Shown here in pieces: positions 16,753 to 44,585 of a stretch of DNA of 64,000 nt. A program made the position numbers and the translations under genes. Source of the stretch: Acidocella sp. (GTDB taxonomy: Bacteria; Pseudomonadota; Alphaproteobacteria; Acetobacterales; Acetobacteraceae). A model generated the notes under the pieces. The model saw only the letters and a list, made by a program, of their open reading frames with translations. It was not told where the DNA came from and made no database searches. The stretch spans positions 8,289 to 72,288 of the forward strand of contig DAIDJU010000189.1 in NCBI GenBank assembly GCA_027451225.1. Reading direction: 5' to 3'. The stretch's first letter is position 1. Each line of letters opens with the position of its first letter.

Positions 16753-16921
16753 TCGACTCACCCAGGCGGATGAACTTGTCCTTCGTCGCCTCGCAGACCG
16801 GGCAGGTCCAGTCCTCGGGCAATGCCTCGAAGGCCGTGCCTGCCTCGACCTGCCAGACATCGTCGCCCTCGGCCGGGTCATACACATGCCAGCAGATGCG
16901 GCACTCCCAACGCTGGCTCAT
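16745..16921 (-). CDS. Rubredoxin, HoxR/HupI-like
   Basis: WECRICWHVYDP...LPEDWTCPVC. Confidence 0.92.
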   Translation of the reverse strand: MSQRWECRICWHVYDPAEGDDVWQVEAGTAFEALPEDWTCPVCEATKDKFIRLGESNA

Positions 16922-17697: not shown

Positions 17698-18083
17698 CAG
17701 GCGGCTTGCTCCGGCGTCATGATCTTGTTGAGTTCCTGGATATATTCCACCCAGTCGCGCATGCGGGGCAAGCTGAGCACCACCGCGCCGTCGCGCAGGA
17801 ACAGCAGGGTTGGGCGTACGCTGACCCTGAAGCGCACGGCAAGTTTTTTCTCCACATCGGGATTGATGACGCCGACACGGAAGCGGTTGGGAAACTCCTT
17901 CAGCAGCTCGGGCAACACCACGGCGAGATCGTCGATCTCGGGGTAGCGGGTGACATTGCCGGTGAAGAACAGGGCGGTGAGACCTTCGGCGGCGAAGGCG
18001 TCGACATCGTCCTGCTTCAGCTCGCTAATGCCAGGCATTTGCAACAGGCGGCGCAGAGAGGGTGAAAGCGTATCGGTATTCAT
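17697..18083 (-). CDS. Thioredoxin-like HyaE/HoxO/HupG
   Basis: RYPEIDDLAVVLPEL, PTLLFLRDG; ATGA overlap with upstream protease. Confidence 0.85.
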   Translation of the reverse strand: MNTDTLSPSLRRLLQMPGISELKQDDVDAFAAEGLTALFFTGNVTRYPEIDDLAVVLPELLKEFPNRFRVGVINPDVEKKLAVRFRVSVRPTLLFLRDGAVVLSLPRMRDWVEYIQELNKIMTPEQAA

Positions 18084-18640
18084 GCGAGACAACCTGATTC
18101 GTAATTTTCCAGCGCCACGGAATCCGGCCCCAGCGAGGCGGCGTCATCCCGCGCCGTGCGCGAGCGCGGTTCCACGCCAAAGCGCTTGAGATAGGCAAGG
18201 GTTTCGGCCAGCGCCGCGTCGATTTGCGCACGCACGGGCGCGGTGACGCTGCCGCCGTAATTCTCCAGATCCAGCGGCTGCACGCCGATGAGCCGGATAT
18301 GCAGCGGCAGCGTGTCCTTCAGCCGCGCGAGGCCCAACACGTCCACCATGCTGGTCTGGTGCAGGCTCATCTTCTTGGCGGTCAGGCATTGCGGCACGTC
18401 GTCATCGTCCACCAGCACCAGCTCGCCGGGTTCGCGCCCGAAATCCACCGCGTCCAGAATGATCAGCACATCCGTGTCCTCGACCAGCGGCAGCAGGGCC
18501 AAGCCCTGCGTGCCGCCATCGACGAGCTTCACGTTCTCGGGGAACACGTGGCGCGCATGCAGGGTTTCCACGGCGCGCACGCCGAAGCCCTCATCCGCCC
18601 AGAGGATATTGCCAACCCCGAGAATGGTGATGTTTTTCAT
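18080..18640 (-). CDS. hyaD: Hydrogenase maturation endopeptidase HyaD/HupD/HoxM
   Basis: ILGVGNILWADEGFG, VDGGTQG, SLHQ. Confidence 0.93.
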   Translation of the reverse strand: MKNITILGVGNILWADEGFGVRAVETLHARHVFPENVKLVDGGTQGLALLPLVEDTDVLIILDAVDFGREPGELVLVDDDDVPQCLTAKKMSLHQTSMVDVLGLARLKDTLPLHIRLIGVQPLDLENYGGSVTAPVRAQIDAALAETLAYLKRFGVEPRSRTARDDAASLGPDSVALENYESGCLA

Positions 18641-19338
18641 GACGATTTGCCATCCTTGAAGTAGCGCCAGCCGCTGATCATCGTGCTCACCATGGTCTGG
18701 CGGGACATCACGTCCTCGCGGATAACCAGATAGATATGCGCGATGACGAAGAGCAGGATGTACCACATGGCCAGATGATGCCAGGTGTGAACCTCCATGC
18801 TGCCGCCAAGCAGCGGGATCACCCAGGAGGTGAACAGCGTATGCGCCCAGCCGCCCGCACCCTCGCCATACAGCGCGAAGCCGGTGACGAGCTGGAAGAT
18901 CACGCCAAGCACGAAGACCGCGAAGATGGCCAGCTGCGCCACGGGGTTATGCCCGACCTCGCGCATCGGCTCGCTCTTCTGGAAGCCGTACCAGCGCAGT
19001 GTCTGGAACAGCTCGTGCCACCAGGATTTGCGCCACACCGCCAGGATAAAAATCTCCCTGGCGTAACGGTTGCCCACCAGCGCCCAATAGACGCGCAACA
19101 GAAAGCCGATGCCCAGGATATACGCGGCGGTGAAATGGATGAAGCGGATGTCACCCATGATGTAGTGGTGGAACGGCTCGCCCGCGATGAGCGGCCAGGC
19201 CGGGTTGCCGATGAGATAGCCGGTGGCGGCAAGGATGATGATGCAAGGCGCCGTCACCCAGTGCCAGAGCCGCACGGGAAGCTCATAGACATAGACGGGG
19301 GCATGCACCTCCGCTGTGTTGGTGTCGGGCGCGCTCAT
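18637..19338 (-). CDS. hyaC: Hydrogenase b-type cytochrome subunit
   Basis: PVRLWHW, RFIHF, GHNP, HTWHHL, HIY. Confidence 0.93.
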   Translation of the reverse strand: MSAPDTNTAEVHAPVYVYELPVRLWHWVTAPCIIILAATGYLIGNPAWPLIAGEPFHHYIMGDIRFIHFTAAYILGIGFLLRVYWALVGNRYAREIFILAVWRKSWWHELFQTLRWYGFQKSEPMREVGHNPVAQLAIFAVFVLGVIFQLVTGFALYGEGAGGWAHTLFTSWVIPLLGGSMEVHTWHHLAMWYILLFVIAHIYLVIREDVMSRQTMVSTMISGWRYFKDGKSS

Positions 19339-19340
19339 GG

Positions 19341-21128
19341 TCAGCGCACCTGCACGCGGACCAGCTCGCCGCCGTCCGGTGCCATCACATGGGTGGAGCA
19401 CGCCAGGCACGGGTCGAAGCTGTGCAGCGTGCGCAGGATTTCGAGCGGCTGGTTGGGGTTGGCCAGCGGCGTGCCGAGCAGCGAGGCCTCGAACGCGCCG
19501 ACATTGCCGGCCGGGTCCCGCGGGGAGCCGTTCCAGGTGGTGGGCACCACGGCCTGGTAGGACTCGATCTTCGCGTCCTTGATGTGCAGCCAATGGCCGA
19601 GCGCGCCGCGCGGGGCCTCGGCGAAGCCAACGCCCTTGACCTCGGACGGCCAGGTGCTCGGCTCCCAATTATCGGTGTTGGCGGTGGAGCTGTCGCCCGC
19701 CGCGATGGTGGCGATCAGGTGGTTGTAGCAATCCTTCAGCTTGTGCGCGGCCCAGCTGGCTTCCAGCGCGCGCGCAGCCGTGCGGCCCAGCGTGGTGAAC
19801 AGCGCGTTGAACGGCAGGCCGAGATCGGTGAGGAGCTTGTCCACCGGGTCCTTGAACTCGGCATTGCCCTGGGCGTAGCCAAGGGTGAAGCGCGAGAGCG
19901 GGCCGACCTCCATGGCTTGGCCGCGCCAGCGGGCGGCCTTGATGTAGGAGTATTTCGCCCCTTCATCGAGCTGCTGGATGTTGGTCTTGGTGCCGATCGT
20001 GTTGGGGCCAAGCTCAAAATTCGGCTCGGTGAGCCCCTCCCACGGGTGCAGGCCCTTCGACTCATCCGGGTATTTGTACCAGGAGTGATCGACGAATTCC
20101 TGCACCTGATCCGGGTCGGTGAGATCGACCGGCAGAATTTCGTTGAGATTGCCGTTGATGATAGCGCCGCGCGGGATCATCAGGTTGGTATAATCGTTGG
20201 CGTGGAGCGGGAACTCACCGTAGGAGATGATGTTCTTGCCCGCCAGGCCCTGGCCGTAATCCCAGTTCTTGTAGAAGCTGGCGATGGCCTTCACATCGGG
20301 GACATAGACCTGATCGACGAACTCGATGGTGCGGGAGATGATGTCCGCCACCAGATTGAGTTGGACGACATTGACCGGCGCGCCGGCGCCCATCTCGGCA
20401 TCCATGTTGATGGCGCAGGCCATGCCGCCCACCAGCCAGTTCGGGTGCGGGTTCTTGCCGCCGAACACGGTGTGGATCTTCACAACCTCGCGCTGGAAAT
20501 CAAGCGCTTCGAGATAATGCGCCGTGGCCATCAGATTAGCCTCGGGCGGCAGCAGATAGGCCGGGTTGCCCCAATAGCCGTTCATGAACGGGCCGAGCTG
20601 GCCGGAATCCACAAAGCGCTGCAGGCGGGCCTGAACATCCGAGAAATAGCCCGGCGAGGATTTGGCCCAGGGCGAGATGGACTGCGCCAGCGCGCTGGTC
20701 GCCTTCGGGTCGGCCTTCAGCGCGGAAATCACATCCACCCAGTCCAGCGCGTGCAGATGGTAGAAATGCACGAGATGGTCATGAATCCACAGCGTGAGCT
20801 GCATCATGTTGCGGATGGTGTTGGCATTCTCGGGGATCTTGATGCCCAGCGCGTTTTCCACCGCGCGCACCGAGGTGAGCGCGTGCGTGCCGGTACACAC
20901 GCCGCAGATGCGTTCGCAGAACGCCCAGGCGTCGCGCGGGTCGCGGCCCTTGAGGATGATCTCCAGCCCGCGCCACATGGTGCCGGTGGAAACCGCGTTG
21001 CGGATGATGTTGTTGCTGTCGAGGTTCACCTCGCAGCGCATATGGCCTTCGATGCGCGTAACCGGGTCCACCACCATGCGGCGGCCGGAATTGTCGAGCG
21101 TGAAACCGTTCGGCGTCTGCACGGTCAT
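19341..21128 (-). CDS. hyaB: [NiFe] uptake hydrogenase large subunit (HupL/HoxG/HyaB)
   Basis: [11 protein letters not shown]1 ERICGVC, L2 [11 protein letters not shown]. Confidence 0.97.
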
Positions 21129-22219
21129 TACTGCTTATCTCCCTCGCCCGGCTTGCGGGTAAAATGCTTCACGGCGCTGGCGCCTGCATGAGCAGCCACG
21201 CCGGCGAGCGCGGCGGCGGCGGCGGTGCCGCCGATCTGGTCGGCCGTGGCCTCGATGCCGAACCCGGCGCCGATATTGGCCAGACGCGAATAGAACGGCC
21301 CGTTATCCCAGAAATTCTCCTCGGAGCAGCCGATGCACCCATGGCCCGACTGGATGGGGAAGGACACGCCGCCATTCCAGCGCACGGTGGAGCAGGCGTT
21401 ATAGGTGGTCGGGCCCTTGCAGCCCATCTTGTACAGGCAGTAGCCCTTGCGCGCGCCCTCGTCGTCCCAGGACTGCACGAACTCGCCGGCATCGAAATGC
21501 GGGCGGCGGTAGCATTTGTCGTGGATGCGCTGGCCGTAGAACATGGCCGGGCGGCCGCGGCTGTCCAGCTCGGGCAGGCGGTCGAAGGTGAGGATGTAGG
21601 AGATCACGCCGGTCATCACCTCGGCGATGGGCGGGCAGCCCGGCACCTTGATGATCGGCTTGTCGGTGATCACCTTGTCGATGGGCACGGCCTGGGTGGG
21701 GTTGGGCTTGGCGGCCTGCACGCAGCCCCAGCTGGCGCACGCGCCCCAGGCGATCACGGCCTTGGCATTCGCCGCGACCGATTTCAGCCGCTCCACGAAC
21801 GGCTTGCCGCCGATGATGCAGTACATGCCGTCTTCGTTCAGCGGCGGGTTGCCCTCCACCGCCAGGATGTACTCGCCGGGATATTTGTTGGGAATCTCGT
21901 CGAGGATCGCTTCGGCGTCATGCCCTGCGGCGGTCATCAGCGTGTCATCGTAATCGAGCGAGATCATCTTCAGGATGACATCGGAGGAGAGCGGGTTGCC
22001 GGAGCGGATGAACGATTCCGAGCAGCAGGTACATTCCAGCCCATGCAGCCACAGCACCGGCAAGCGGGGCTTGGTTTCCATCGCATGGGCGATCTTGTCG
22101 GCATAAACCGGCTCAAGGCCCAGCGCCGCGGCCGTAAGGCTGCAGAACTTAAGAAAAGAGCGCCGGGATGTACCCTGCGCCCGCATCAGCTCGTAAAAAG
22201 TCTGAGGTTTATCCGCCAC
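21128..22219 (-). CDS. hyaA: [NiFe] hydrogenase small subunit, Tat-exported (HupS/HoxK/HyaA)
   Basis: SRRSFLK Tat motif, [19 protein letters not shown]-terminal anchor; GTG start after GGAGGGGGAG. Confidence 0.96.
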
Positions 22220-22330
22220 GCTGATTATCTCCCCCTCCATCAATCGGAGCGGCGTGCAACGGCAAATATGGGCGCCGTATACCCGCCGGCATAAGTGGTT
22301 ACCACTGGCCCGCTGCCAGCCGCGATTGCA

Positions 22331-22344
22331 TTGATTCAGATCAA
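22331..22344. promoter_or_regulatory. FNR/FixK-type box upstream of hydrogenase operon
   Basis: Perfect TTGAT-TCAG-ATCAA. Confidence 0.85.
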
Positions 22345-22540
22345 TCGATCCAGATCGGCAAGCTTCGTCCTCATGGGGACGCTCCGCAGTTTTGTTGTGC
22401 AACGCAACATGTTCTGCATCCCGCGCAAAGCTGGCAGGCGGATTATGGTCCACCGCCTTATGTCCAAGCGGGGGCGGATCGTTTATCACCCCTGGCGTAA
22501 AGCGGCCTGGAACGGGGCGGCTTTAGAATTTTGTTCTTAG

Positions 22541-24118: not shown

Positions 24119-25558
24119 CATGACCGCATCGCGCTGCGCGGCCTTGGGGCTTGCAGCGTCGATCCGGGTCCAGCCGATCTCCCCCGTCTCCCATTCGCGC
24201 TGCCGCCGCAGCACATCAGCTCCGGCATCCGAGGCATCCCCGCGCCTGGCATCGAGCCGCGCGATCAGCACCTCATCCGGCGCGTCCAGCCAGACGCCCG
24301 TAAACGCCACGCCCAGACGCCCCGCCAGAGCCGCGGCGGCCTCGCGCTCCTCACGGCGCAGAAAGGCGGCATCCAGAATCACGCTATAGCCGGCGTCCAG
24401 CGCCGCCTCGGCCTGGGTCAGCAGTTCGGCATAGACCTTGGCGCTCATCTCCCGCGTATAGGCGCTCTCGGGCAGGCGGGTTTCCGGCGGCACGCCGCAC
24501 AGGGTCTTGCGCAGCACATCACTCCGCAGCACCCGCGCACCGGGCGCCGGGGGTAGTTCGGGCGCCACAGCCGCCGCCAAGGTGGATTTGCCCGAACCGC
24601 TGACGCCGCCAACGGCCAGCAGGCGCGGCGTGGCCGGGCGCAGCACCAGCGCCGCCAAAGCGAGATATGTTTTCCCTTCCTCCCCCCTGCCCTGCGCCGC
24701 CAGCACATGGGCGCGGATAACCGCCCGCACGGCGATGAACAGCTTCATCGCCGCCATGCCATCGGCCTCCTTGGCGCGATCGAGATAGCGGTTGAACACC
24801 AGGGCGGCGAAGCAGCTTTCGCCCCGGCGCAGCAAATCCATGAGCAAAAAGGCGAGGTCGTAAAGCGGGTCGATGCAGGCGAAATCGTCCGAGAACTCGA
24901 TGCAGTCGAACAGCAAAGGCCGGCCCTGCCAGAGCACGATATTGCCCAGATGCAAATCGCCATGACAGCGCCGTATGCCCGCGCCGCGGGCTGTCAGCAG
25001 AGCGGCGTGAGCCTCCACCGCCACGCGGCAGGCGGCGTTCACCTCGTCCACCAGCGCCGGGTCGAACCCCGCCTTGGCGAGGTTCTCCGCATTGCCCTCC
25101 ACTACCCCGCGCAACAACGCCGCGCCATCGCGCGGGGTGCGCTCAGCCGCTTGGTGGAAAGCAGCGATATTATCGGTGAGGTCGCGCAGCAACGGGGCAC
25201 TCAGCCGCCCCGCCTTGGCCAGGGAATCGAAGATATCCGCCTCGGCGAAGCGGCGCATCTCCAACACATAATCCACCGCCTCACCCGGCCCATCAAACTC
25301 CAGCCCGCCCGATGCCGCGCGGGTGATGGCGCGGACCCGGCGATAAAGCTGCGGCGCGGTGCGACGGTTCAGCGCCAGCTCGGCCTCGCAAAAGGCCTTG
25401 CGCCGGACCGGTGTAGAATAGTCGAGATAGGAGAACCTCACCGCACGCTTGAGCTTGTAGGCGGTGCCGGCATGCAGGAAGACGATGGAGATATGTGTCT
25501 CCGCCCGGGCCTCAGCACCCTGGGCGAGGTAGGCTATGACCTCGTCCTGGTCAGGCAC
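24098..25558 (-). CDS. Aminoglycoside-phosphotransferase-like plus P-loop kinase fusion (Rv2004c-like)
   Basis: ETHIS, AYKLKR, CHGDLHLGN, FDCIEF; C-terminal GGVSGSGKST. Confidence 0.88.
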   Translation of the reverse strand: MPDQDEVIAYLAQGAEARAETHISIVFLHAGTAYKLKRAVRFSYLDYSTPVRRKAFCEAELALNRRTAPQLYRRVRAITRAASGGLEFDGPGEAVDYVLEMRRFAEADIFDSLAKAGRLSAPLLRDLTDNIAAFHQAAERTPRDGAALLRGVVEGNAENLAKAGFDPALVDEVNAACRVAVEAHAALLTARGAGIRRCHGDLHLGNIVLWQGRPLLFDCIEFSDDFACIDPLYDLAFLLMDLLRRGESCFAALVFNRYLDRAKEADGMAAMKLFIAVRAVIRAHVLAAQGRGEEGKTYLALAALVLRPATPRLLAVGGVSGSGKSTLAAAVAPELPPAPGARVLRSDVLRKTLCGVPPETRLPESAYTREMSAKVYAELLTQAEAALDAGYSVILDAAFLRREEREAAAALAGRLGVAFTGVWLDAPDEVLIARLDARRGDASDAGADVLRRQREWETGEIGWTRIDAASPKAAQRDAVMKNLARG

Positions 25559-27392
25559 GGTCCGTCCAGGGCGGGATCCTGGCGGCCAGCTCGTCCAGCT
25601 TGGCGCCCGAGATCGTCTCGTCCTTCAACAGTTCCTTCGCCGCCTCGCGCAACACGGGCATGTTCGCCTGCAAGATGGCGCGGGAGCGGTTGAAAGCATG
25701 CTCCACCAGATCGTGGATGGCGGCATCGATGGTCGCTGCCGTCTGCTCCGAGTATTGGCGCGGCCGCCAATCCGGCACGCCGGTGGGGCCGAGCAGATGC
25801 TGCGTCTCCGGCTCGTAGGTCATCTGGCCGAGTTTATCGTCCATGCCGAAGCGCACGACCATGGAGCGGGCGATGTCCGTGGCGCGGGCCAGATCGTCCG
25901 ACGCGCCGGTGGACACTTCGGGGAAGATCAGCGACTCCGCCGCCCGCCCGCCCAGCAGCACGGTCATGCGGTTCATCAGCTCGGCGCGGCTCATCAGGAA
26001 ACGATCCTCGCCCGGACGCTGGATGGTATAGCCCAACGCCGCCAGCCCGTGCGGGATGATGGAGATTTTCTGTACCTTGTCACTCTCGGGCAGGGCCATG
26101 GCGGTGATGGCGTGGCCCAGCTCGTGATGCGCCACCACCTCGCGTTCCTTGGGCACCAGCAGGCGGGTGCGCTTCTCCAGCCCGGCGATGATCCGCTCCA
26201 CCGCCTCGGTAAAATCCTCCAGCGTCACGGCCTCGGCTTGGCGGCGGGTGGCCAGCAATGCCGCCTCGTTCACCAGATTGGCGAGATCAGCGCCCGTGAA
26301 ACCCGGAGTAAGGGCCGCGATTTCCTCGGGCGAGATGCCCGGGGCGAGCTTCACCTTGTGCATGTGCAGATTGAGGATCTGCACGCGCCCGGCCTTGTCC
26401 GGCCGGTCCACCAATATCTGCCGGTCGAACCTTCCGGCGCGCAGCAAGGCGGGGTCGAGAATCTCGGGCCGGTTGGTGGCGGCCAGCAGCACCACGCCGG
26501 AGGAGGGGTCGAACCCGTCCATCTCGGCGAGGAGCTGGTTCAGCGTCTGCTCTTTTTCATCGTTGCCGCCGCCGGGGATCGCGGCGTTGCGGGCGCGGCC
26601 CAGGGAGTCCAGCTCGTCGATGAAGATGATCGCCGGGGCGGATTTGCGGGCCTGGTCGAACAAATCGCGCACGCGCGCCGCCCCCACGCCGACAAACATC
26701 TCCACGAATTCGGAGCCGGAGATGGAGAAGAACGGCACATTCGCCTCGCCCGCCACGGCGCGGGCCAGCAGGGTTTTGCCCGTGCCCGGCGGGCCGACCA
26801 GCAGCACACCCTTGGGGATATGCGCGCCGAGCCGGCCATAAGCGGCGGGGTCTTTCAGGAAGTCCACGACCTCCTTCAGCTCGGCCTTGGCTTCCTCCAC
26901 CCCGGCGACATCCTTGAACCGTACCGCCACGTCGCTCTCGGCATAGACCCGCGCGCGGCTCTTGCCGACGGCCAGCACGCCGCCAGCCCCGCCCATGCGC
27001 CCACCCAGCAGCATGTACCAAAGCCCGCCGAACAGCAGCAGCGGAGCCAGCCAGCCGAGCAAATTGGAAAGGAAACCCGGTGCCGGTTCACCGGAAAACG
27101 TGACCTTCTGCTTGGCCAGATCCTGCGCCAGAGCGGGGTCAACGCGGTCGGTCTCGAACTGGGTCGGCTGGCCGGGGGCGGCGTTCTTCAGCGTGCCGGT
27201 GATCTGGCTCTCGCCGACCATCAGATTATCCACCTGCCCGGCCTGCAACAGGGACTGGAACTGGCTGTAGGGGATGATTTTCACCTGCTGCTGCGCCTCG
27301 CGGCTCAATGCCGAGAACACCAGCAGCGAGATCAGCACCGCGGCGAGGACAAAGCCAAAACGTGAAACGTTGTCATTAGTCTCTTTCGCCAC
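25551..27392 (-). CDS. ftsH: ATP-dependent zinc metalloprotease FtsH (probably an accessory paralog)
   Basis: Two TM segments, GPPGTGKT, IIFIDELD, AATNRPE, HELGH. Confidence 0.95.
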   Translation of the reverse strand: MAKETNDNVSRFGFVLAAVLISLLVFSALSREAQQQVKIIPYSQFQSLLQAGQVDNLMVGESQITGTLKNAAPGQPTQFETDRVDPALAQDLAKQKVTFSGEPAPGFLSNLLGWLAPLLLFGGLWYMLLGGRMGGAGGVLAVGKSRARVYAESDVAVRFKDVAGVEEAKAELKEVVDFLKDPAAYGRLGAHIPKGVLLVGPPGTGKTLLARAVAGEANVPFFSISGSEFVEMFVGVGAARVRDLFDQARKSAPAIIFIDELDSLGRARNAAIPGGGNDEKEQTLNQLLAEMDGFDPSSGVVLLAATNRPEILDPALLRAGRFDRQILVDRPDKAGRVQILNLHMHKVKLAPGISPEEIAALTPGFTGADLANLVNEAALLATRRQAEAVTLEDFTEAVERIIAGLEKRTRLLVPKEREVVAHHELGHAITAMALPESDKVQKISIIPHGLAALGYTIQRPGEDRFLMSRAELMNRMTVLLGGRAAESLIFPEVSTGASDDLARATDIARSMVVRFGMDDKLGQMTYEPETQHLLGPTGVPDWRPRQYSEQTAATIDAAIHDLVEHAFNRSRAILQANMPVLREAAKELLKDETISGAKLDELAARIPPWTDRA

Positions 27393-27423: not shown

Positions 27424-27891
27424 TCAGCCCTTCAGCTTGCCCGTCGCCACGGCGCGGACGATATCGGCGCGGCTGACAATGCCGATCACCTTGCCTTCCT
27501 TCAACACGGGCACGCGCTTGATATGGTGCTGCGCCAGCAAATCCACAATTTCCGCCACGGCAGTATCTTCGACGACGCTGACCACGTCGCGCGTCATCAG
27601 GTCTTCGGCGGTGCGCTTTTCCTGCTTCAGATATTCCACGAAATCGGGCGCCAGATCCTCGCCCTCGGCCAGCATTTGCAGCCACCAGGCGCGGCGGTCC
27701 TCCTCATGCGCGCCCAGCCGGCGCATCAGGTCCTGCTCGCTGACCATGCCGAGCAGCTTGCCCGCGGCGTCCACCACCGGGGCCGCGCTGATTCCATGCT
27801 CGGCCAACACACCCGCCACCTTCGACACATTGTCGAACGGGTGCACCACCACGGGGGTGCGGTTCATGATATCGGCTGCCGTCACGGTCAT
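27424..27891 (-). CDS. CBS-pair protein
   Basis: Two CBS repeats (ISAAPVVD..GMVS; IKRVPVL..GIVSRADI). Confidence 0.9.
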   Translation of the reverse strand: MTVTAADIMNRTPVVVHPFDNVSKVAGVLAEHGISAAPVVDAAGKLLGMVSEQDLMRRLGAHEEDRRAWWLQMLAEGEDLAPDFVEYLKQEKRTAEDLMTRDVVSVVEDTAVAEIVDLLAQHHIKRVPVLKEGKVIGIVSRADIVRAVATGKLKG

Positions 27892-27946: not shown

Positions 27947-27960
27947 TTGATTTCTATCAA
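27947..27960. promoter_or_regulatory. FNR/FixK-type box upstream of CBS-ftsH-kinase operon
   Basis: Perfect TTGAT-TTCT-ATCAA, centre about 62 bp from CBS start. Confidence 0.85.
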
Positions 27961-30336: not shown

Positions 30337-32271
30337 ATGGGACAGGAAACCGCTAAGGCCATGCAGCCATTCTCACTATCCGCTAGGGCAGAAGCGTTGA
30401 ACCATTTTGCAGCAGCCCCCGGGGGCGTTGATCCCGGGGATATCAGCCGGTCCTGGCAGCGCTGCCGAACGGCCGGGCTGACGCCAGAGCAAAACCGGCG
30501 GGACGATCCGCACCTGACCCACGCCGAACGGCGCGTAGCCGCCGACCGGCGCGCCACGCTGGTGACGCAGGCGCGGCCAGTAATGGATTATTTCTATAGC
30601 CAAATCAAAGACTCCGGCTGCGTTATGCTGCTCTCGGACGAGAACGGCTATTTGCTGGATTCCGCCGGCGACGCCGATTTCTGCACCCGCGCGGCCCAGG
30701 TGGCGCTCAGCCCTGGCGCCTCCTGGGCCGAGGAAGCGCGCGGCACCAATGCCATCGGCACAGCGCTCATCGAGCGCAAGCCGATCGTGGTGACGGGCGC
30801 CGAGCATTACCTGCGCCACAACAACTTCCTCGCCTGCGCCGCCGCCCCCCTCACCGAGCCAAACGGCCAGCTCCTCGGCGCCATCGACATCTCCTGCGAC
30901 GCCAGGCGCTACCACCCGCACACCTTCGGGCTGGTGCGCGCTGCGGCACAGATGATCGAAAAACGCATCTTCGAGCTGAATTTCATCCACCAGACCAAGC
31001 TGCGCTTTCATATGTCCAGCAACTGCCTGGGCAGCCTGATGGAAGGCGCGGTGGCGATCGGCGAGGATGGGCGTCTTCTGGGCGCCAATCGCCCTGGCTT
31101 TGCCATGCTGGGGCTGAAACATGAGGATATCGGCAAGCGCGACATTTGCACCCTGTTCGACCTGAGCATCCCCGAGCTGATGTCGCTCGGCCTGCGCTCG
31201 CAAACCGAGGCTGCGGGCGTGCGGTTGCGTAATGGCGAGTTGCTCTACCTCACCGTGGAGCAGATGCGCGCACCAGTGATCCGCCGCCCAACCGCCCCGG
31301 TGGCGGACGCGCAGCAGCCCGACGCCCTGACCGAGCTGGACACCGGCGATGCCCGTGTTTCCAAGGCCATTGGCCAGCTCCGCCGGGTGCTGGGGCGCAA
31401 GGTGCCCATCCTGCTCAAGGGCGATACCGGGGCGGGCAAGGATTTCTTCGCCCGCGCCATCCACTCCGCCGGGCCGCGCGCCAACGGACCATTCGTGGCC
31501 GTGAACTGCGCCGCCCTGCCGGAGACGCTGATCGAGTCCGAGCTGTTCGGCCACGCCCCCGGCGCCTTTACCGGCGCGCGCAAGGAGGGCTCGCCAGGGC
31601 GCATCCGCGAGGCGCATGGCGGCACGCTGTTCCTGGATGAGATCGGCGACATGCCGCTGGCGATGCAGACCCGCCTGCTGCGCGTGCTGGAGGAAGGCAC
31701 GGTCACCCCCATCGGCGGCAAGCCGGTGCCGGTGGATTTCCTGCTCATCTCCGCCACCCATGCGGATTTCACGGCCCGCATCGCGGCCAAGACCTTCCGC
31801 TCCGACCTGTATTACCGGCTGAACGGGCTTTCCGTCTCGCTGCCGCCCGTGTGCGAGCGCACGGACCTGCCCGCGCTGATCGAGCGCATTCTGGCGCGCG
31901 AGGCGACCTCGCGCGGCGGTCCTCCCCCCACCCTCTCGCCAGAACTGGCCGAGGCCTTCGCCAGCTATTCATGGCCTGGCAATCTGCGTCAGCTCGCCGG
32001 CGTCCTGCGGACCGCCTGCCTGATGCTGGATGAGAGTGAGAACGTGTTGCACATGCACCATCTCAGCGAGGAAGCTCTGCGCGAACTCACCACCAAACGC
32101 CAAGCCACGGTGATGGTGGAAGCCGCGGGCTCCACGCTGCGGGAACAGTCGGACGCAATGATCGCCGCCGCCGTGGCCGAGGCGGGCGGCAATATCGCCG
32201 CCGCCGCGCGCAACCTGGGCATCAGCCGCAACACGCTGTACCGCCGCCTGGGCAACGTGCGCGAGCATTAA
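30337..32271 (+). CDS. sigma54-dependent activator, GAF-AAA-Fis (AcoR-like)
   Basis: GTNAIGTAL GAF, GDTGAGKD, GAFTGA, FLDEIGD, WPGNLRQL, HTH LGISRNTLYRRL. Confidence 0.93.
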   Translation: MGQETAKAMQPFSLSARAEALNHFAAAPGGVDPGDISRSWQRCRTAGLTPEQNRRDDPHLTHAERRVAADRRATLVTQARPVMDYFYSQIKDSGCVMLLSDENGYLLDSAGDADFCTRAAQVALSPGASWAEEARGTNAIGTALIERKPIVVTGAEHYLRHNNFLACAAAPLTEPNGQLLGAIDISCDARRYHPHTFGLVRAAAQMIEKRIFELNFIHQTKLRFHMSSNCLGSLMEGAVAIGEDGRLLGANRPGFAMLGLKHEDIGKRDICTLFDLSIPELMSLGLRSQTEAAGVRLRNGELLYLTVEQMRAPVIRRPTAPVADAQQPDALTELDTGDARVSKAIGQLRRVLGRKVPILLKGDTGAGKDFFARAIHSAGPRANGPFVAVNCAALPETLIESELFGHAPGAFTGARKEGSPGRIREAHGGTLFLDEIGDMPLAMQTRLLRVLEEGTVTPIGGKPVPVDFLLISATHADFTARIAAKTFRSDLYYRLNGLSVSLPPVCERTDLPALIERILAREATSRGGPPPTLSPELAEAFASYSWPGNLRQLAGVLRTACLMLDESENVLHMHHLSEEALRELTTKRQATVMVEAAGSTLREQSDAMIAAAVAEAGGNIAAAARNLGISRNTLYRRLGNVREH

Positions 32272-32308: not shown

Positions 32309-32322
32309 TTGATTTGTATCAA
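32309..32322 (+). promoter_or_regulatory. FNR/FixK-type box with no protein gene downstream
   Basis: Perfect TTGAT-TTGT-ATCAA between convergent genes. Confidence 0.85.
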
Positions 32323-32356
32323 GGAACGGATCCGCGAAGAGAGGCATCTATTGGTC

Positions 32357-32419
32357 ATCCCAAAGCGGATACACTCCCCAGACTTGGCCCTGCCGCGAGA
32401 AATCGTGGCAGGGTTTTTT
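32357..32419 (+). ncRNA. Candidate FNR-activated sRNA, SuhB/MmgR (alpha-r8)-like
   Basis: ATCC/GGAT 5' hairpin, unpaired CACTCCCCAGACTT, terminator CCCTGCCGCG-AGAAAT-CGTGGCAGGG-T6; 5' end inferred from FNR -41.5 geometry. Confidence 0.7.
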
Positions 32420-32523
32420 CTTGGAGCACACCAAATAATAAGTTTTTATATCAGAATGTAATTTCTGGTGATTTTACCTTGATGTAACAAAAATTTTTGG
32501 TGCAGCTTTTCTCAAAAATCCGC

Positions 32524-32557
32524 AAAAACGCCGCCCTCTATATACGAAGGCGGCGTT
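32524..32557 (-). terminator. Intrinsic terminator of hemN
   Basis: AACGCCGCC-N13-GGCGGCGTT with T run on minus strand. Confidence 0.7.
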
Positions 32558-32574
32558 ACAAAACTTTCAAAACA

Positions 32575-33939
32575 TCAAACCGCAGCGGAATGACGCGGCG
32601 TTTCAGCGCTGGCCTGCTTCAGATAAACATCGAACAGCGCAGCAACATTACGCACGAAGGGACGTCCGCGCTCGGTCACGCGCAGGTACTCGCCATCCCA
32701 CTCCACCAGCCCATCGGCGGCAAAACCGCTGAGCGGCGCAGCATCTTCGAGAAGAGGCGCAGGGTCTGTTCCCATGGCTTTGGCAAGAGCGGGGATGTTC
32801 AACTCCAGATCGCACATGATGCGCTCGATCGCAGCACGGCGCACGCGGTCATCTACGCTCAGCGCCACACCGCGCACCACGGGCAAGCGCCCCTCGTTGA
32901 TCGCCGCCTCGTAGGCGGGCACGCCGGTGGCGTTCTGCACATAGCCCTGCGGCAGCGCGCCGATGGAAGATGCGCCGAGCCCGAGCAGCACGGGTGTGGC
33001 GTCGGTGGTGTAGCCCTGGAAATTGCGGTGCAGCGCCTTATCCTCCACGGCGATGGCCATGGGGTCGTCCGGCCGGGCGTAATGGTCCAGCCCGACGGGG
33101 ATGTAACCGCCCTCCTGCTCCAGCACTTGGCGGATCATCTGCTCCTGGGCGAGGCGCGCTTGCGCCCCCGGCAGCGCGGCTTCGGGGATCAGCTTCTGGT
33201 GTTTCTTCATCCAGGGCACATGGGCGTAACCGAACACGGCGGCGCGGTCAGCCCCCAGCGCCAAAGCCTGGCGCGCGGTGCGGGCCACGGATTCGGTGGT
33301 CTGGTGCGGCAGGCCATAGATCAGGTCGAGATTGAGCGAGGTGACGCCCAGCCCGCGCAACGCCTTGGCCGCGGCCTCGGTCTCCTCGAAGCTCTGGTGC
33401 CGGCCGATGGCCTCCTGCACCGCCTCGTCGAAATCCTGCACGCCGAGGCTGGCGCGGTTCACGCCCATCAGGCGCAGCGCGTCCAGGCACTCTGGCGTCA
33501 GCGTGGTCGGGTCGATCTCGATGGCCACCTCGGCGTCCGCGCGCAGATGAAAGCGCTTGCGGACATGGTCCATGATGCCGGTCAGGCAATCTTCCGGCAT
33601 GGCGGTGGGCGTGCCCCCGCCCCAATGCACCTGGGTGACCGTGGCGCGGCGGCCGATCAGGTCGGCCAGCAGATCCAGCTCGCGCGCGAGCTGCATGGCA
33701 TAGGCGCGCTTGGGCCGGTCATTGCGCACCACGCTGGTGTTGCAGCCGCAATACAGGCAGAGCCGGTCGCAGAAGGGAATGTGGATATAAAGGGAGATCG
33801 CCGCATCAGCGGGCAGTTCAGCCAGCCATTGCGCATAGGTCTCGGCGCCAATGCCGGGGTGGAAATGCGGCGCGGTGGGGTAGCTTGTATAGCGCGGTAC
33901 GCGCCCATGGTAGCGGGCGATCAGCTCGGCATCGGTCAT
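32575..33939 (-). CDS. hemN: Oxygen-independent coproporphyrinogen III dehydrogenase
   Basis: PRYTSYPTA, YIHIPFCDRLCLYCGC radical SAM motif, GGGTP, HRNFQGYTT. Confidence 0.96.
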   Translation of the reverse strand: MTDAELIARYHGRVPRYTSYPTAPHFHPGIGAETYAQWLAELPADAAISLYIHIPFCDRLCLYCGCNTSVVRNDRPKRAYAMQLARELDLLADLIGRRATVTQVHWGGGTPTAMPEDCLTGIMDHVRKRFHLRADAEVAIEIDPTTLTPECLDALRLMGVNRASLGVQDFDEAVQEAIGRHQSFEETEAAAKALRGLGVTSLNLDLIYGLPHQTTESVARTARQALALGADRAAVFGYAHVPWMKKHQKLIPEAALPGAQARLAQEQMIRQVLEQEGGYIPVGLDHYARPDDPMAIAVEDKALHRNFQGYTTDATPVLLGLGASSIGALPQGYVQNATGVPAYEAAINEGRLPVVRGVALSVDDRVRRAAIERIMCDLELNIPALAKAMGTDPAPLLEDAAPLSGFAADGLVEWDGEYLRVTERGRPFVRNVAALFDVYLKQASAETPRHSAAV

Positions 33940-33973
33940 GGGCTGTCCATGAACCGGCGCCGGGCTTCTCACA

Positions 33974-33987
33974 TTGATTCACGTCAA
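33974..33987. promoter_or_regulatory. FNR box upstream of hemN, overlapping the cysK stop
   Basis: TTGAT-TCAC-GTCAA (one mismatch). Confidence 0.8.
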
Positions 33988-41827: not shown

Positions 41828-41920
41828 TGGCGGAGGAGATGGGATTCGAACCCACGATACGCCTTGACAGCGTATAACGGTTTAGCAAACCGCCGCCTTC
41901 AGCCTCTCGGCCACCCCTCC
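41828..41920 (-). tRNA. tRNA-Ser (anticodon GCU)
   Basis: GGAGGGG acceptor stem, TTGCTAA anticodon loop, long variable arm, TTCGAAT, CCA. Confidence 0.95.
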
Positions 41921-42072: not shown

Positions 42073-42106
42073 TGCTGCATTGCAAAATTTTTCTTGCACC
42101 GCAGCA
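42073..42106. promoter_or_regulatory. Paired PhaR/AniA-like operator sites over sRNA promoter
   Basis: TGCTGCATTGCA-N10-TGCACCGCAGCA inverted pair, each fitting TGCRNYGCASMA as I recall it. Confidence 0.55.
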
Positions 42107-42129
42107 TAAATTAGCATACAGAAATAAAT

Positions 42130-42207
42130 GCAGGGTGAGTTTCTCCCCTGTTTCTTGGACGTTTCCTCCCTAAACTTGGCGGCGCTACATTAGCGCCGCC
42201 TTTTTTT
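42130..42207 (+). ncRNA. mmgR: MmgR/SuhB (alpha-r8)-family sRNA
   Basis: CAGGG/CCCTG hairpin, TTTCCTCCCTAAACTT core, GGCGGCGCTA-CAT-TAGCGCCGCC-T7; convergent with N-formylglutamate amidohydrolase. Confidence 0.8.
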
Positions 42208-43081
42208 ATTCGGCGGCAGCGCAATAGCTTGGGCCGGCGGCGCCCCAGAGACGCATGGCATCGGCCATATCCCGCAGAAAACCGCTCAAGCGCTCCTGTA
42301 CCTGGGGAAAGCGGGCGTTGTAGGCGAATTGCCGCTCATGCATGTACAACCCGCGTGCGACTTCAAGCTGCACCACCTGCACACCCTCGCGCGGGCGGCC
42401 GTAATGGCGGGTGATGAAGCCCCCGGCATAGGGATCGTTGCGGCGGACGGAAAAGCCATGCCCGGTGAGCAGGGACTCGATATACGCGGTCCAGGCCGGC
42501 GTGCAGCTTGTGCCATGGCCGTCCCCCAGCACGATATCGGGGCGGTTGTGGCTTCGCCCGGGCGGGGTGGGCATGGAATGGCAGTCCAGCACCAGACAAT
42601 GGCCGAATTCGGCCTGGGTTTCCTCGATCAGCGTGGCCAGCGTCTCGTGGAAGGGCTGCCAGCAATTGCGCACGCGCGCCTCGGCTTCGGCAAAATTCAG
42701 CTTGCGGGCGTAAATCGGCTCGCCCGTGCCGACAATCCGCGCGATCGTCCCCAGCCCCGCCGCCACGCGCGGGCTGTGGCGGTTCACGTAATCGGGCAGT
42801 TCGTCTGCGAACATGCCGGGGTCCAACTCCCAGGGCTCGCGGTTGGCGTCGCACCAGGCGCGCGGGAATTCCGCCGCCAGCAGCGGCAGCCCCAAAGCGG
42901 GGCCAGCGCCGAACAGCTCCTCCACGAAACTGTCCTCCGAGCGGCGGATGGCCTGCGCGTCCAACCGCGCCTGGGCCAGGAATTCCTCCCCATAATACCG
43001 CCCCGAATGCGGCGAGGTAAGCACCAGAGCGGCACTCTGGCGTTTGGGCCGCAGCAATGTGAAGGGCGACAAATCTTTCAT
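42206..43081 (-). CDS. N-formylglutamate amidohydrolase family
   Basis: TSPHSGR, DANR, DCHSMP, RNDPYAGG, VQLEVAR. Confidence 0.9.
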   Translation of the reverse strand: MKDLSPFTLLRPKRQSAALVLTSPHSGRYYGEEFLAQARLDAQAIRRSEDSFVEELFGAGPALGLPLLAAEFPRAWCDANREPWELDPGMFADELPDYVNRHSPRVAAGLGTIARIVGTGEPIYARKLNFAEAEARVRNCWQPFHETLATLIEETQAEFGHCLVLDCHSMPTPPGRSHNRPDIVLGDGHGTSCTPAWTAYIESLLTGHGFSVRRNDPYAGGFITRHYGRPREGVQVVQLEVARGLYMHERQFAYNARFPQVQERLSGFLRDMADAMRLWGAAGPSYCAAAE

Positions 43082-43136
43082 GGCTCGTCCCCATTCAACC
43101 AGCCCGGGGGAGCAGGAGCAAGCTAATTGCCTGTCA

Positions 43137-44585
43137 TCACCCTCCCGCGCCGAGCAGGGCTCGGTGCAGCCGCCGCGCCATCGCCCCCATGCGGCGCGGG
43201 GCAAAAACCAGTGCCACCAAGGTGAAGGCACCGCCCGCAACCGCCACGCTCACGCCGAATTGAGCCACCAGCCCCAGCCCCGGCAACGCCCGCAGCACCG
43301 CCCAGGCCGCCAGCCTTGCCGCCGCCAGCGCCGCGGCGGGCAGGATCAGCAGCCGCAGCACCGCCCCCGCCTGACGCTCCAGCCCCTGGCGCAGCGCCAG
43401 GGCGAACAACCCCAGCCCCAGCACGCCCCGCGCCGCCAGCGCCCAGGCCAGCGCCAAAAGCCCGTAAGGAGCCGCGAACCACGCCGCGGCGGCGATGGTG
43501 GCGGCATTGGCCCAGGCATAGCGCGAGACCAGCCGCGTGCGTCCGGCGCTGGTGAGCAGCGGGTTGACCACGCTGTACAGCGCCGCCGCCGGCGCCATGA
43601 GCGTCAGCACCGCGAAGACCGGCACCGCCGCCGCCCAGCGCGGCCCGAACATCAGCAACACGATGGGCTTGGCCGCCGCCCCGCACACCGCCGCCACAAA
43701 AAAGATGACCATACTGAGCAGGTCGAGCATCTGCCGGGCGGTCTCGAAGCGCCGGGCGGAGTCATGCCGCACCGCCACCAGCACCGGCATGAACACGTTG
43801 CGCGCGGGGGTGAAGGCGATCTCCTGCAATACCTCGAACAAGCGCTGGGCGATGCGGAACTCGCCTAGCGCGACCACCGGCATGCGCAGCCCCGCCAGCA
43901 TCACATAGCCCGTGGCGGCGATGTAATCGACGAACCCGGCCTGCATCAACGGGAAGGAGAAGCGAAAGCCCTCGCGCAGCACGGGCCAGGAAGGCGGGCG
44001 CGGCGGCGCCCAGCCCGCGGCGGTGGACGCCGCCACGGCATAGAACACCACCCCCGCCATGCGCTGCGCGACGAGTGCGGCCACCCCATGCCCGGCAAAA
44101 GCGCAGGGCAGCGCCACCGCCCCGCCGATAACCGTGCCGCCCAGCGAGATCAGCCCCACCGTGCGGAAGCGGAATTGCGTGGCCAGCCGCGCCGAGGGCA
44201 CAACGAGAAACGCCGTCAGCAGCACGTTCAGCCCCATGATCCGCAGCACCGGCGCCAGCACGGGCTGGCCGTATAGCGCGGCGAATCCAGGTGCCAGGGC
44301 AAAGAGCAGCGCCATGAACAGCAGCGAGGCCAGGAACTGGCTCCAGAACGCCGCCGCCTCCACGTTCATGTCACCCGGGCTGGCCTGCACCTGCTCCCCC
44401 GCCCCGCTATTGGCGACGAGCCGCGCCAGATCGGAAATCGCGGAGGCGATGGCGATGAGCCCCACCACCGAGGCCGGCACCACGCGCAGCAGCAGCCCGA
44501 GCACGATAAAACCCAGCCCGCGCTCGGCCAGCACCGTGGCGAAGCCCCATGCCGCCCCGCGCGCCGCCCCCCGCGCCAGATTCAT
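43137..44585 (-). CDS. Wzx/MOP-family oligosaccharide flippase
   Basis: About 12 hydrophobic segments, LLMFGPRWAAAVP. Confidence 0.75.
   Translation of the reverse strand: MNLARGAARGAAWGFATVLAERGLGFIVLGLLLRVVPASVVGLIAIASAISDLARLVANSGAGEQVQASPGDMNVEAAAFWSQFLASLLFMALLFALAPGFAALYGQPVLAPVLRIMGLNVLLTAFLVVPSARLATQFRFRTVGLISLGGTVIGGAVALPCAFAGHGVAALVAQRMAGVVFYAVAASTAAGWAPPRPPSWPVLREGFRFSFPLMQAGFVDYIAATGYVMLAGLRMPVVALGEFRIAQRLFEVLQEIAFTPARNVFMPVLVAVRHDSARRFETARQMLDLLSMVIFFVAAVCGAAAKPIVLLMFGPRWAAAVPVFAVLTLMAPAAALYSVVNPLLTSAGRTRLVSRYAWANAATIAAAAWFAAPYGLLALAWALAARGVLGLGLFALALRQGLERQAGAVLRLLILPAAALAAARLAAWAVLRALPGLGLVAQFGVSVAVAGGAFTLVALVFAPRRMGAMARRLHRALLGAGG

What the first reader, a model, noticed from the sequence alone, without database searches (positions are those of the whole stretch)
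32309..32419. Candidate oxygen-responsive sRNA behind a perfect FNR box
Seen: perfect TTGAT-N4-ATCAA in a gap between two convergent genes, so it has no protein gene to drive. A -41.5 spacing puts the start at 32357, exactly where an ATCC/GGAT hairpin begins, followed by an unpaired CACTCCCCAGACTT and a 10-bp terminator with T6. Its core CTCCCCAGACTTGGC is 13/15 identical to the core of the MmgR-like sRNA at 42166-42180. Known: FNR class II sites sit near -41.5; SuhB/alpha-r8 sRNAs carry an anti-SD core before the terminator. Inference: a roughly 63-nt SuhB-family paralog wired to low oxygen, which I do not know to be described.
Basis: partly seen in the sequence, partly recalled or inferred. 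Interest (0 to 1): 0.8.

Follow-up and report, generated by a model that had tools for sequence, protein, structure and literature searches.

The report
FNR-box-driven small RNA beside hemN
A roughly 63-nucleotide regulatory RNA gene sits behind a low-oxygen (FNR-type) promoter next to the haem gene hemN and is kept across the acid-loving genus Acidocella; it looks like a diverged sibling of a known alphaproteobacterial RNA, so it is a well-supported and testable addition to known kinds, not a new kind.

Summary
Comparison with relatives supports a real gene. The window comes from an Acidocella close to A. aromatica. The unit is box, 22-nt spacer, weak -10, 5' hairpin, CUCCCC single strand, terminator. 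I found it in 18 loci downstream of hemN, with HemN identity 66-92%. Seven were found through HemN alone (one as two near-identical contigs) and ten through an RNA 18-mer that excludes the box. Every copy keeps TTGA-N6-TCAA 47-48 nt before the hairpin's first base. The spacer, the flanks and the upstream gene change. The terminator stem shows compensatory changes.

The best reading is a class II FNR/FixK-type promoter (centre -41.5) driving a trans-acting anti-Shine-Dalgarno sRNA. Expression, FNR binding, Hfq dependence and targets are all untested.

Kinship with alphaR8/SuhB/MmgR is suggestive only. RF00519 is the only family to hit the sRNA interval in all eight copies tested (best by E-value in each), but at 19-30 bits (gathering score 41). 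The family 10-mer UUUCCUCCCU is matched 6/10. My model's best non-self hit in the window is the canonical mmgR. That copy sits by the FGase gene with a PhaR-like operator.

Verdict: a new sRNA family of a known kind.

The parts
32309..32322 (.). FNR/FixK-type box TTGATTTGTATCAA, centred 41.5 nt upstream of the predicted start
   Evidence: It is perfect TTGAT-N4-ATCAA in 16 of 18 family loci and has one mismatch (GTCAA half-site) in L084 and L111. The box always starts 47-48 nt before ATCC.
32323..32344 (+). 22-nt promoter spacer of fixed length and free sequence
   Evidence: Mean pairwise identity is 0.57 (minimum 0.27) in the seven loci (the window plus six found through HemN), against 0.90 for the box and 0.96 for the 5' part of the RNA.
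32345..32350 (+). weak -10-like hexamer CATCTA (CACATA, CATAAA or CATAAG in relatives), with no -35 element
   Evidence: In L097 and L105 a 1-nt deletion lies between the hexamer and ATCC, so the box-to-hexamer distance is kept. The overlapping hexamer TCTATT (32347-32352) is an alternative, which would move the start by 2-3 nt.
32357..32419 (+). predicted sRNA, about 63 nt, from the predicted +1 (uncertain by about 3 nt) to the end of the T-tract
   Evidence: Fold (z = -4.1). Covariance model R1 self-score is 89.9 bits, and 66-96 bits in 16 relatives. No plausible reading frame.
32357..32370 (+). 5'-terminal 4-bp hairpin, ATCC-CAAAGC-GGAT
   Evidence: The stem is invariant in all 18 loci, so there is no covariation to prove it. 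The loop differs in L111 (GCTCAA).
32371..32385 (+). single-stranded C-rich stretch ACACUCCCCAGACUU, the presumed anti-Shine-Dalgarno seed
   Evidence: Unpaired in the minimum-energy and centroid folds. ACACUCCCCA is invariant in the seven loci (the window plus six found through HemN). L111 has ACUUUCCCAAACUG instead.
32388..32419 (+). Rho-independent terminator: 10-bp stem, 6-nt loop, T6
   Evidence: Three stem pairs show changes on both sides across the family, and 93% of cells are paired against 21-45% when the partners are slid.
42138..42214 (+). canonical alphaR8/MmgR copy, listed as the comparator and presumed paralog; it is not part of the unit itself
   Evidence: RF00519 at 52.6 bits. 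It lies next to the FGase gene 42206-43240. A PhaR-like operator core, TGCACCGCAGCAT, is at 42095-42107. It is the best non-self hit of model R1, at 19.3 bits and E = 0.015.

Best explanation
The interval 32309-32419 is a self-contained gene for a small RNA of about 63 nt.

How it is probably switched on. A CRP/FNR-family activator that recognises TTGAT-N4-ATCAA binds at -41.5. The most likely candidate is an FnrL/FnrN-type [4Fe-4S] oxygen sensor. Bound there, it takes the place of a -35 element, which is the class II arrangement. It recruits RNA polymerase to a weak -10, so the RNA is made when oxygen is scarce, together with the neighbouring hemN and probably the NiFe hydrogenase and the CBS/FtsH-like operon, which carry the same box.

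What the transcript looks like. It starts at or within about 3 nt of A32357 with a 4-bp 5' hairpin. It then exposes ACACUCCCCAGACUU and ends at a strong intrinsic terminator with a U-tail.

What it probably does. It most likely acts in trans, probably with Hfq. The CUCCCC stretch would pair with Shine-Dalgarno regions (GGGGAG) of target mRNAs and repress them during oxygen limitation.

Where it probably came from. It is probably a diverged sibling of the alphaR8/MmgR RNA, with a re-tuned seed and a new promoter.

Shown: the sequence anatomy, the conservation pattern, the fixed spacing, the terminator covariation and the sub-threshold reciprocal similarity to alphaR8. Inferred: transcription, the activator and its signal, Hfq, the mode of action, the targets and common descent with alphaR8.
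For: 1. Anatomy and chance.

2. Footprint in loci found through HemN alone. These are L081-L084, L086 and L087, with HemN identity 70-92%. Mean pairwise identity with the window is 0.90 for the box, 0.57 for the spacer and 0.96 for the RNA 5' 29 nt. It is 0.45 for the upstream flank and 0.33 for the downstream flank.

3. A test that did not select for the box. A metagenome scan used an 18-mer lying inside the RNA. Ten of its 22 hits are this RNA, and all ten carry a perfect TTGAT-N4-ATCAA at the same distance.

4. Spacing. The box start lies 48 nt before ATCC in 15 loci and 47 nt in 3. In L097 and L105 the missing base lies downstream of the -10-like hexamer.

5. Changing neighbours. The upstream gene on the same strand differs between loci: a sigma-54 activator, a CBS/BON protein, DUF2189 or OmpW. 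The unit still always lies convergent to the 3' end of hemN.

6. Terminator. Compensatory changes occur at three stem pairs.

7. Link to alphaR8. RF00519 hits the sRNA interval in all 8 copies tested and has the lowest E-value there. All hits are full-length (model 1-77), at 19.4-30.5 bits. Model R1, run with filters off, ranks the canonical mmgR second in the window at 19.3 bits (E = 0.015), while other terminators score 12.4 bits or less.

8. A suitable regulator exists in the lineage. L111 carries a diverged copy of the RNA. About 0.9 kb away it encodes an FNR-type protein with C-X2-C-X7-C and an ETVSR recognition helix. GoxR is a characterised FNR-type regulator in another member of the Acetobacteraceae (PMC9429829).

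9. Precedent. In Caulobacter, the alphaR8 siblings SisA-D have unrelated promoters and repress targets through an anti-SD 10-mer with Hfq (PMC12559287).
Against: - There is no expression data of any kind. The start site is inferred to within about 3 nt.
- The -10 is weak. An overlapping hexamer (TCTATT) would put the box at about -43.5.
- No FNR-like gene was spotted in the window itself, though the check was a crude motif scan.
- The 5' hairpin never varies, so covariation cannot confirm it.
- No credible target was found. The best window-wide duplexes are at background level. The one 8-bp match to a real ribosome-binding site, that of the FtsH-like gene, is not conserved in L088 or L098.
- RF00519 scores are well below the gathering score and the alphaR8 10-mer is not kept. 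Part of the similarity is terminator plus U-run, so convergence on a C-rich anti-SD motif is possible.
- The ten metagenome copies were selected with an 18-mer, so their invariance in that stretch is by construction.
- The loci are related by descent, so they are not independent observations.
Confidence: 0.7

Rival explanations
1. The RNA is a real FNR-box-driven sRNA but is not related by descent to alphaR8/MmgR. On this view the shared CUCCC-N-A-N-ACUUGG stretch and the hairpin, single strand, terminator layout are convergent. C-rich anti-Shine-Dalgarno seeds are common in alphaproteobacterial sRNAs.
For: RF00519 scores are 19-30 bits against a gathering score of 41. The defining 10-mer UUUCCUCCCU is matched at only 6/10 positions. 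The 5' hairpin shares nothing with that of mmgR. A terminator plus a U-run contributes bits to any such model.
Against: The best-hit relation is reciprocal and specific. No other terminator in the regions searched reached E <= 10 against RF00519. Model R1 ranks mmgR about 7 bits above every other terminator in 64 kb. The diverged L111 copy keeps the other half of the 10-mer (CUUUCC, then CAAACU). Together, the two variants cover the alphaR8 core.
Confidence: 0.35
2. The box is read by a different CRP/FNR-family member, not by an oxygen-sensing FNR. Candidates are FixK under FixLJ, or a Dnr/NnrR-type nitric-oxide sensor. The signal would then be indirect, or would not be oxygen itself.
For: TTGAT-N4-ATCAA is shared by FNR, FixK and relatives (established knowledge of the family). 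No regulator gene lies in the window.
Against: Co-occurrence with boxes in front of hemN and an uptake hydrogenase is typical of low-oxygen regulons. FnrL/FnrN-type proteins with the Fe-S cysteine motif lie next to hemN in L111 and L113.
Confidence: 0.2
3. No separate RNA exists. The hairpin plus T6 is merely the terminator or 3' UTR of the upstream sigma-54 activator gene, and the box is an orphan or roadblock site.
For: The terminator lies 117 nt after the activator's stop codon, and that gene has no other obvious terminator.
Against: The unit persists unchanged where the upstream gene is a CBS/BON protein, DUF2189 or OmpW. The 29 nt before the terminator are 96% conserved, while true 3' flanks are 33-45% conserved. 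The spacing between box, -10-like hexamer and hairpin is fixed.
Confidence: 0.04
4. The unit acts in cis. FNR-driven transcription converging on hemN modulates the hemN 3' end by interference or read-through antisense RNA, and the RNA product itself is unimportant.
For: The unit is always convergent with hemN, 30-250 nt from its stop codon. In L111 the sRNA terminator is the only hairpin after hemN.
Against: The terminator is strong. In the window hemN has its own terminator (32527-32561), so the transcripts need not overlap. Strict conservation of the RNA 5' sequence is not explained by interference.
Confidence: 0.05

Closest known systems
alphaR8 / SuhB / MmgR sRNA family (Rfam RF00519); includes S. 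meliloti MmgR, Sphingopyxis SuhB and Caulobacter SisA-D
   Same: About 60-80 nt long. A weak 5' hairpin, then a single-stranded C-rich anti-SD stretch, then a Rho-independent terminator. The stretch CUCCC-N-A-N-ACUUGG is shared with the window's own canonical copy. Extra siblings at other loci with unrelated promoters are known (PMC12559287). The two are reciprocal best sub-threshold matches.
   Different: It scores below the Rfam gathering score in all 8 copies tested. The defining 10-mer UUUCCUCCCU is replaced by UACACUCCCC. The 5' hairpin sequence differs. It is not next to the FGase gene. Its promoter carries an FNR box, whereas the canonical copy has a PhaR/AniA-type operator (PMC12542648).
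FnrS (Enterobacteria), with AniS (Neisseria) and PcrZ (Rhodobacter, PrrA/FnrL-dependent): sRNAs switched on by FNR-type regulators at low oxygen
   Same: Same predicted logic. An FNR-type site upstream of a small, terminator-ended, stand-alone RNA gene adds a repressing arm to an activator regulon. FnrS is described in PMC8595263 and PMC11572966. AniS and PcrZ are cited from my own knowledge.
   Different: There is no sequence or structure similarity: no FnrS or other family hit appeared in the permissive Rfam search. The RNA is much shorter than FnrS (about 122 nt). The lineage is different (acidophilic Acetobacteraceae). No experimental evidence exists here.
Class II FNR-dependent promoters (box centred near -41.5)
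   Same: A perfect consensus box, no -35 element, a weak -10, and fixed box-to-start geometry in all copies. The same geometry is seen at the neighbouring hemN promoter.
   Different: The start site and activator binding are not measured. The -10 hexamer is poor and ambiguous by 2 nt.

Membership tests
alphaR8 / SuhB / MmgR (RF00519) | Scores at or above Rfam's gathering score (41 bits) against the family covariance model | tested here: not met
   Window copy 19.6 bits. Seven other copies 19.4-30.5 bits. The canonical copy at 42138 scores 52.6 bits.
alphaR8 / SuhB / MmgR (RF00519) | Internal single-stranded 10-mer 5'-UUUCCUCCCU-3', said to be common to all alphaR8 RNAs (PMC12559287) | tested here: not met
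   The aligned stretch is UACACUCCCC, 6/10 identical. Only CUCCC is kept. The L111 variant keeps CUUUCC instead.
alphaR8 / SuhB / MmgR (RF00519) | Weak hairpin upstream of the single-stranded core, and a Rho-independent terminator downstream | tested here: met
   Fold, consensus fold, terminator scan, terminator covariation.
alphaR8 / SuhB / MmgR (RF00519) | Primary copy lies next to an N-formylglutamate amidohydrolase gene (siblings may lie elsewhere) | tested here: not met
   The candidate lies between a sigma-54 activator gene and hemN. The FGase-linked position is occupied by the canonical copy at 42138-42214. This does not exclude sibling status.
alphaR8 / SuhB / MmgR (RF00519) | Hfq association and repression of targets through the C-rich core | not testable with these tools
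   Needs Hfq co-immunoprecipitation or RIL-seq, plus reporter assays.
FNR-activated sRNAs (functional class: FnrS, AniS) | FNR-type consensus site at an activating position upstream of a stand-alone sRNA gene | tested here: met
   The box is centred 41.5 nt before the predicted start and is kept at fixed spacing in 18 loci. The start itself is inferred.
FNR-activated sRNAs (functional class: FnrS, AniS) | Induction at low oxygen that depends on the FNR-type regulator | not testable with these tools
   No expression data are available.
FnrS (Rfam family) | Sequence and structure match to the family model | tested here: not met
   No FnrS hit even at E <= 10 in the 401-nt search.
Class II FNR promoter | An FNR/FixK-type regulator with the E--SR recognition helix is encoded in the genome | tested here: inconclusive
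   None was seen in the 64-kb window by a crude motif scan. One is present 0.9 kb from the diverged copy in L111, and another next to hemN in L113.

The most novel reading that the evidence does not exclude
Acidocella carries a genus-wide, oxygen-wired sibling of the alphaR8/MmgR riboregulator with a re-tuned seed (CUCCCC in place of UUUCCUCCCU). On this reading one ancestral anti-SD RNA has split into two. One copy reports carbon and PHB status through a PhaR operator. The other reports oxygen limitation through an FNR box. It would be the first alphaR8-type sibling with a defined transcription-factor input other than PhaR/NtrC/LysR-type control. It would also be a natural system for studying how sRNA paralogs diverge in both promoter and seed.
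Probability: 0.4. Interest if true: 0.6.

Novelty: new member of a known kind. Interest (0 to 1): 0.5.

Why it matters
Nothing is known about riboregulation in acidophilic Acetobacteraceae. alphaR8 is among the most widespread alphaproteobacterial sRNA families, yet the inputs and division of labour of its siblings are largely open (PMC12559287).

This site offers a compact and clearly delimited case. It has a perfect FNR box, fixed geometry, an invariant seed, and a canonical sibling with a different operator 10 kb away in the same window. The hypothesis can therefore be tested directly with a northern blot, a box mutant and a seed mutant.

If confirmed, it adds a repressing RNA arm to the FNR regulon of an aerobic, iron-reducing acidophile. 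It would also give an example of promoter and seed diverging together after sRNA duplication. It does not reveal a new mechanism.

Tried and rejected
1. Exact-protein look-ups of the window's HemN, tried with two start codons, found nothing. The source genome is not in that collection.

2. The single genome-contig scan with HemN returned only relatives at 67% identity or less, none from Acidocella. None carries the RNA, either by a core-motif regex or by model R1. The RNA is therefore not a general partner of hemN in Alphaproteobacteria. It is also absent downstream of hemN in Acidisoma (L110) and in L113.

3. Twelve of the 22 hits of the metagenome 18-mer scan are unrelated sequences and were set aside.

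4. Target search. A sliding duplex scan of the whole window gave only background-level hits; the best, -26.6 kcal/mol, lies inside a coding region. A scan of translation-initiation regions found an 8-bp match (CUGGGGAG) on the ribosome-binding site of the FtsH-like gene. That match is not conserved in L088 or L098, so I rejected it.

5. Small-protein reading. The ORFs listed at 32309 and 32314 start inside the box, upstream of the predicted start site. The transcript has no start codon preceded by a ribosome-binding site.

6. A motif scan for an FNR-like gene in the window found none.

7. No other Rfam family fits the RNA. On its strand, the other hits overlapping it at E <= 10 are generic terminator-type matches well below their gathering scores.

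8. The original papers on GoxR and MmgR are not held in the library.

Full report
**Observation**

The window has TTGATTTGTATCAA at 32309-32322. It lies in the gap between two convergent genes. One encodes a GAF/MimR_N-type sigma-54 activator (30337-32271, +). The other is hemN (32575-33939, -; Radical_SAM plus HemN_C).

The genome has 66% G+C, so a perfect TTGAT-N4-ATCAA is expected 0.01 times per window. Three are present. The TTGA-N6-TCAA core occurs four times against 0.33 expected.

The other three boxes sit in promoter-like positions. They lie upstream of the NiFe hydrogenase small-subunit gene (22331), a CBS-domain gene followed by an FtsH-like gene (27947), and hemN itself (33974). The motif therefore behaves as a working operator in this organism.

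- ATCC/GGAT hairpin at 32357-32370.
- Unpaired ACACTCCCCAGACTT at 32371-32385.
- A 10-bp G+C-rich stem at 32388-32413, then T6.
- Fold energy -27.5 kcal/mol, z = -4.1.
- The 15-mer at 32374-32388 matches 42166-42180 at 13/15 positions.
- The RNA at 42138-42214 is a true RF00519 (suhB/mmgR) hit at 52.6 bits.

**Source organism and relatives**

HemN is 92% identical to that of Acidocella aromatica, and the best-scoring hits that carry an organism name are nearly all Acidocella. CysK, the aldehyde dehydrogenase and the activator are 92-97% identical to their A. aromatica counterparts. The window is from a close relative of that species.

None of its 80 hemN loci carries the RNA. I therefore fetched contigs that encode HemN homologues found by protein search.

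**Phylogenetic footprint**

In six loci chosen only through HemN (70-92% identity), the same unit lies downstream of hemN on the opposite strand. With the window they make the seven loci compared here. Ungapped mean pairwise identities by segment are as follows.

| Segment | Mean pairwise identity |
|---|---|
| Upstream flank | 0.45 |
| Box | 0.90 |
| 22-nt spacer | 0.57 |
| -10 region | 0.72 |
| First 29 nt of the RNA | 0.96 |
| Terminator | 0.62 |
| Downstream flank | 0.33 |

I then ran a metagenome scan with an 18-mer lying entirely inside the RNA (AAAGCGGATACACTCCCC), so it could not select for a box. It gave 22 hits. Ten are this RNA, and all ten have a perfect TTGAT-N4-ATCAA at the same distance.

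Model R1 found a more diverged copy in an Acidocella MAG (L111 and L112, HemN 66% identical). Its box is TTGATTTAGGTCAA. It keeps the same hairpin stem with a different loop, and its core is ACUUUCCCAAACUG.

Across the 18 loci, the box starts 48 nt before ATCC in 15 and 47 nt before it in 3. In L097 and L105 the missing base lies between the -10-like hexamer and ATCC, so the distance from box to hexamer is preserved.

The upstream gene on the same strand varies: the sigma-54 activator, a CBS/BON protein, DUF2189 or OmpW. The unit stays. This rules out a simple 3' UTR or terminator of the upstream gene.

The terminator stem shows changes on both sides at three pairs. Of its cells, 93% are paired, against 21-45% when the partners are slid. 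The 5' hairpin never varies, so its structure is neither supported nor contradicted by covariation.

**Promoter model**

A hexamer occupies -12 to -7 relative to A32357. It reads CATCTA here and CACATA, CATAAA or CATAAG in relatives. There is no -35 element, and the box centre falls at -41.5. This is the classical class II FNR arrangement (established knowledge). The overlapping hexamer TCTATT would move the start 2-3 nt downstream.

The neighbouring hemN promoter has the same geometry: box, 22 nt, CATGGA, 6 nt, then the A of the ATG.

No FNR-like gene was seen in the window by a crude scan. L111 carries the diverged RNA. About 0.9 kb away it encodes a protein with cNMP_binding and HTH_Crp_2 domains, a C-X2-C-X7-C motif and an ETVSR helix. 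L113 has a similar gene beside hemN. An FNR-type iron-sulfur regulator, GoxR, is known in Gluconobacter, another member of the Acetobacteraceae (PMC9429829). I cannot tell from sequence whether the protein acting here is an oxygen-sensing FNR or a FixK/Dnr-type relative.

**Relation to alphaR8/MmgR**

According to PMC12559287, alphaR8 RNAs share three things:
- a Rho-independent terminator;
- a single-stranded 10-mer, UUUCCUCCCU, downstream of a weak hairpin;
- usually, a position next to an FGase gene.

The same paper reports that siblings elsewhere in the genome have unrelated promoters, and that SisA represses targets through the 10-mer with Hfq.

The window's canonical copy meets all of these. 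It scores 52.6 bits, it abuts the FGase gene at 42206-43240, and its sequence contains the 10-mer. Its promoter contains TGCACCGCAGCAT (42095-42107). That is the core of the PhaR/AniA site of S. meliloti mmgR (PMC12542648).

The candidate shares the architecture and the stretch CUCCC-N-A-N-ACUUGG. RF00519 hits the sRNA interval in all eight copies tested and has the lowest E-value there. The hits are always full-length, at 19.4-30.5 bits. In the other direction, my model R1, run over the whole window with filters off, ranks the canonical mmgR second (19.3 bits, E = 0.015). All other terminators score 12.4 bits or less.

Against membership, every score is below the gathering score of 41, and the 10-mer is matched at only 6/10 positions. 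The L111 variant keeps the other half of the 10-mer (UUUCC). I read this as weak support for descent from alphaR8.

I therefore do not file the RNA as a member of RF00519. I call it alphaR8-like and a probable diverged sibling, with about even odds.

**Function**

The most likely mode of action is trans-acting repression, by pairing of the invariant CUCCCC stretch with Shine-Dalgarno regions. It would be switched on by the FNR-type regulator. That matches the logic of FnrS in enterobacteria (PMC8595263, PMC11572966), with which there is no sequence similarity.

I could not identify targets. Window-wide duplex scores are at background level. The one 8-bp match to a real ribosome-binding site, that of the FtsH-like gene, is not conserved. 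Only 64 kb of the genome was available, so this says little either way.

**Novelty**

I found no match at gathering level in Rfam 15 and no paper on sRNAs in Acidocella. I also found no report of an FNR- or FixK-controlled alphaR8 sibling. Both underlying ideas are established: alphaR8 siblings with separate promoters, and FNR-activated sRNAs.

Verdict: a new sRNA family of a known kind, well supported as a gene by comparative evidence and unproven in expression and function. Interest is 0.5.

Noticed in passing
window 42095-42214 (+), and 42206-43240 (-): The canonical alphaR8/MmgR (RF00519, 52.6 bits) sits in the family's classical position next to an FGase gene. Its promoter contains TGCACCGCAGCAT, identical to the core of the S. 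meliloti mmgR PhaR/AniA operator. A second TGC-N3-GCA element lies at about 42076-42086.
   Followed up: partly
window 33939-33987 (-): The hemN box (TTGACGTGAATCAA on the minus strand) has the same 48-nt box-to-start geometry as the sRNA. This puts the predicted start on the A of the hemN ATG (33939), so the FNR-dependent hemN mRNA may be leaderless. No alternative in-frame start exists before the conserved N-terminus. In L081 the box (3964) and the ATG (4013) are offset by one nucleotide more.
   Followed up: partly
window 22331-22344 and 27947-27960: Two further perfect FNR boxes. One lies upstream of the NiFe hydrogenase small-subunit gene (minus strand) and is divergent from an acetyl-CoA hydrolase/transferase gene. 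The other lies 56 nt upstream of a CBS-domain gene (27424-27891, -) that is followed by an FtsH-like protease gene (25551-27392, -). In several relatives (L086, L090, L091, L097) a CBS/BON gene lies directly upstream of the sRNA.
   Followed up: partly
window 32430-32520; promoter-like site 32462-32435 (-): An AT-rich stretch lies between the sRNA terminator and the hemN terminator (32527-32561). It contains a sigma-70-like match on the minus strand (ATTACA-16-TATTAT) that would fire antisense through the sRNA gene. The stretch aligns only with L081 and is not conserved further.
   Followed up: no
L111 7347-8108 (-); L113 4131-4895 (+): FnrL/FnrN-type regulators (C-X2-C-X7-C, a central Cys and an ETVSR recognition helix) are encoded close to hemN in Acidocella-like MAGs. 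In L113 the gene is also next to cytochrome bd oxidase genes. L113 has IS-like debris and no sRNA downstream of hemN.
   Followed up: partly
window 10360-22489: A large uptake-hydrogenase cluster: HypD, HypF, a HypE-like AIRS protein, a HypB/CobW-type GTPase, HupH, HyaE, and the large and small NiFe subunits. It sits in an acidophilic heterotroph and is apparently under the same box as the sRNA.
   Followed up: no
window 50645-50803 (-); 7467-7550 (+); 41831-41920 (-): A 6S RNA (74.2 bits) and two long-arm tRNAs were detected by Rfam.
   Followed up: no
L092, L100, L102, L103, L106, L108: The 18-mer used for the metagenome scan also occurs in an unrelated conserved context (GGAATCCGCCAGAAAGCGGATACACTCCCCCGCTCATGGG) in soil or rhizosphere contigs. 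It has no box, no ATCC hairpin and no terminator there, so it is not this RNA. What it is remains unknown.
   Followed up: no
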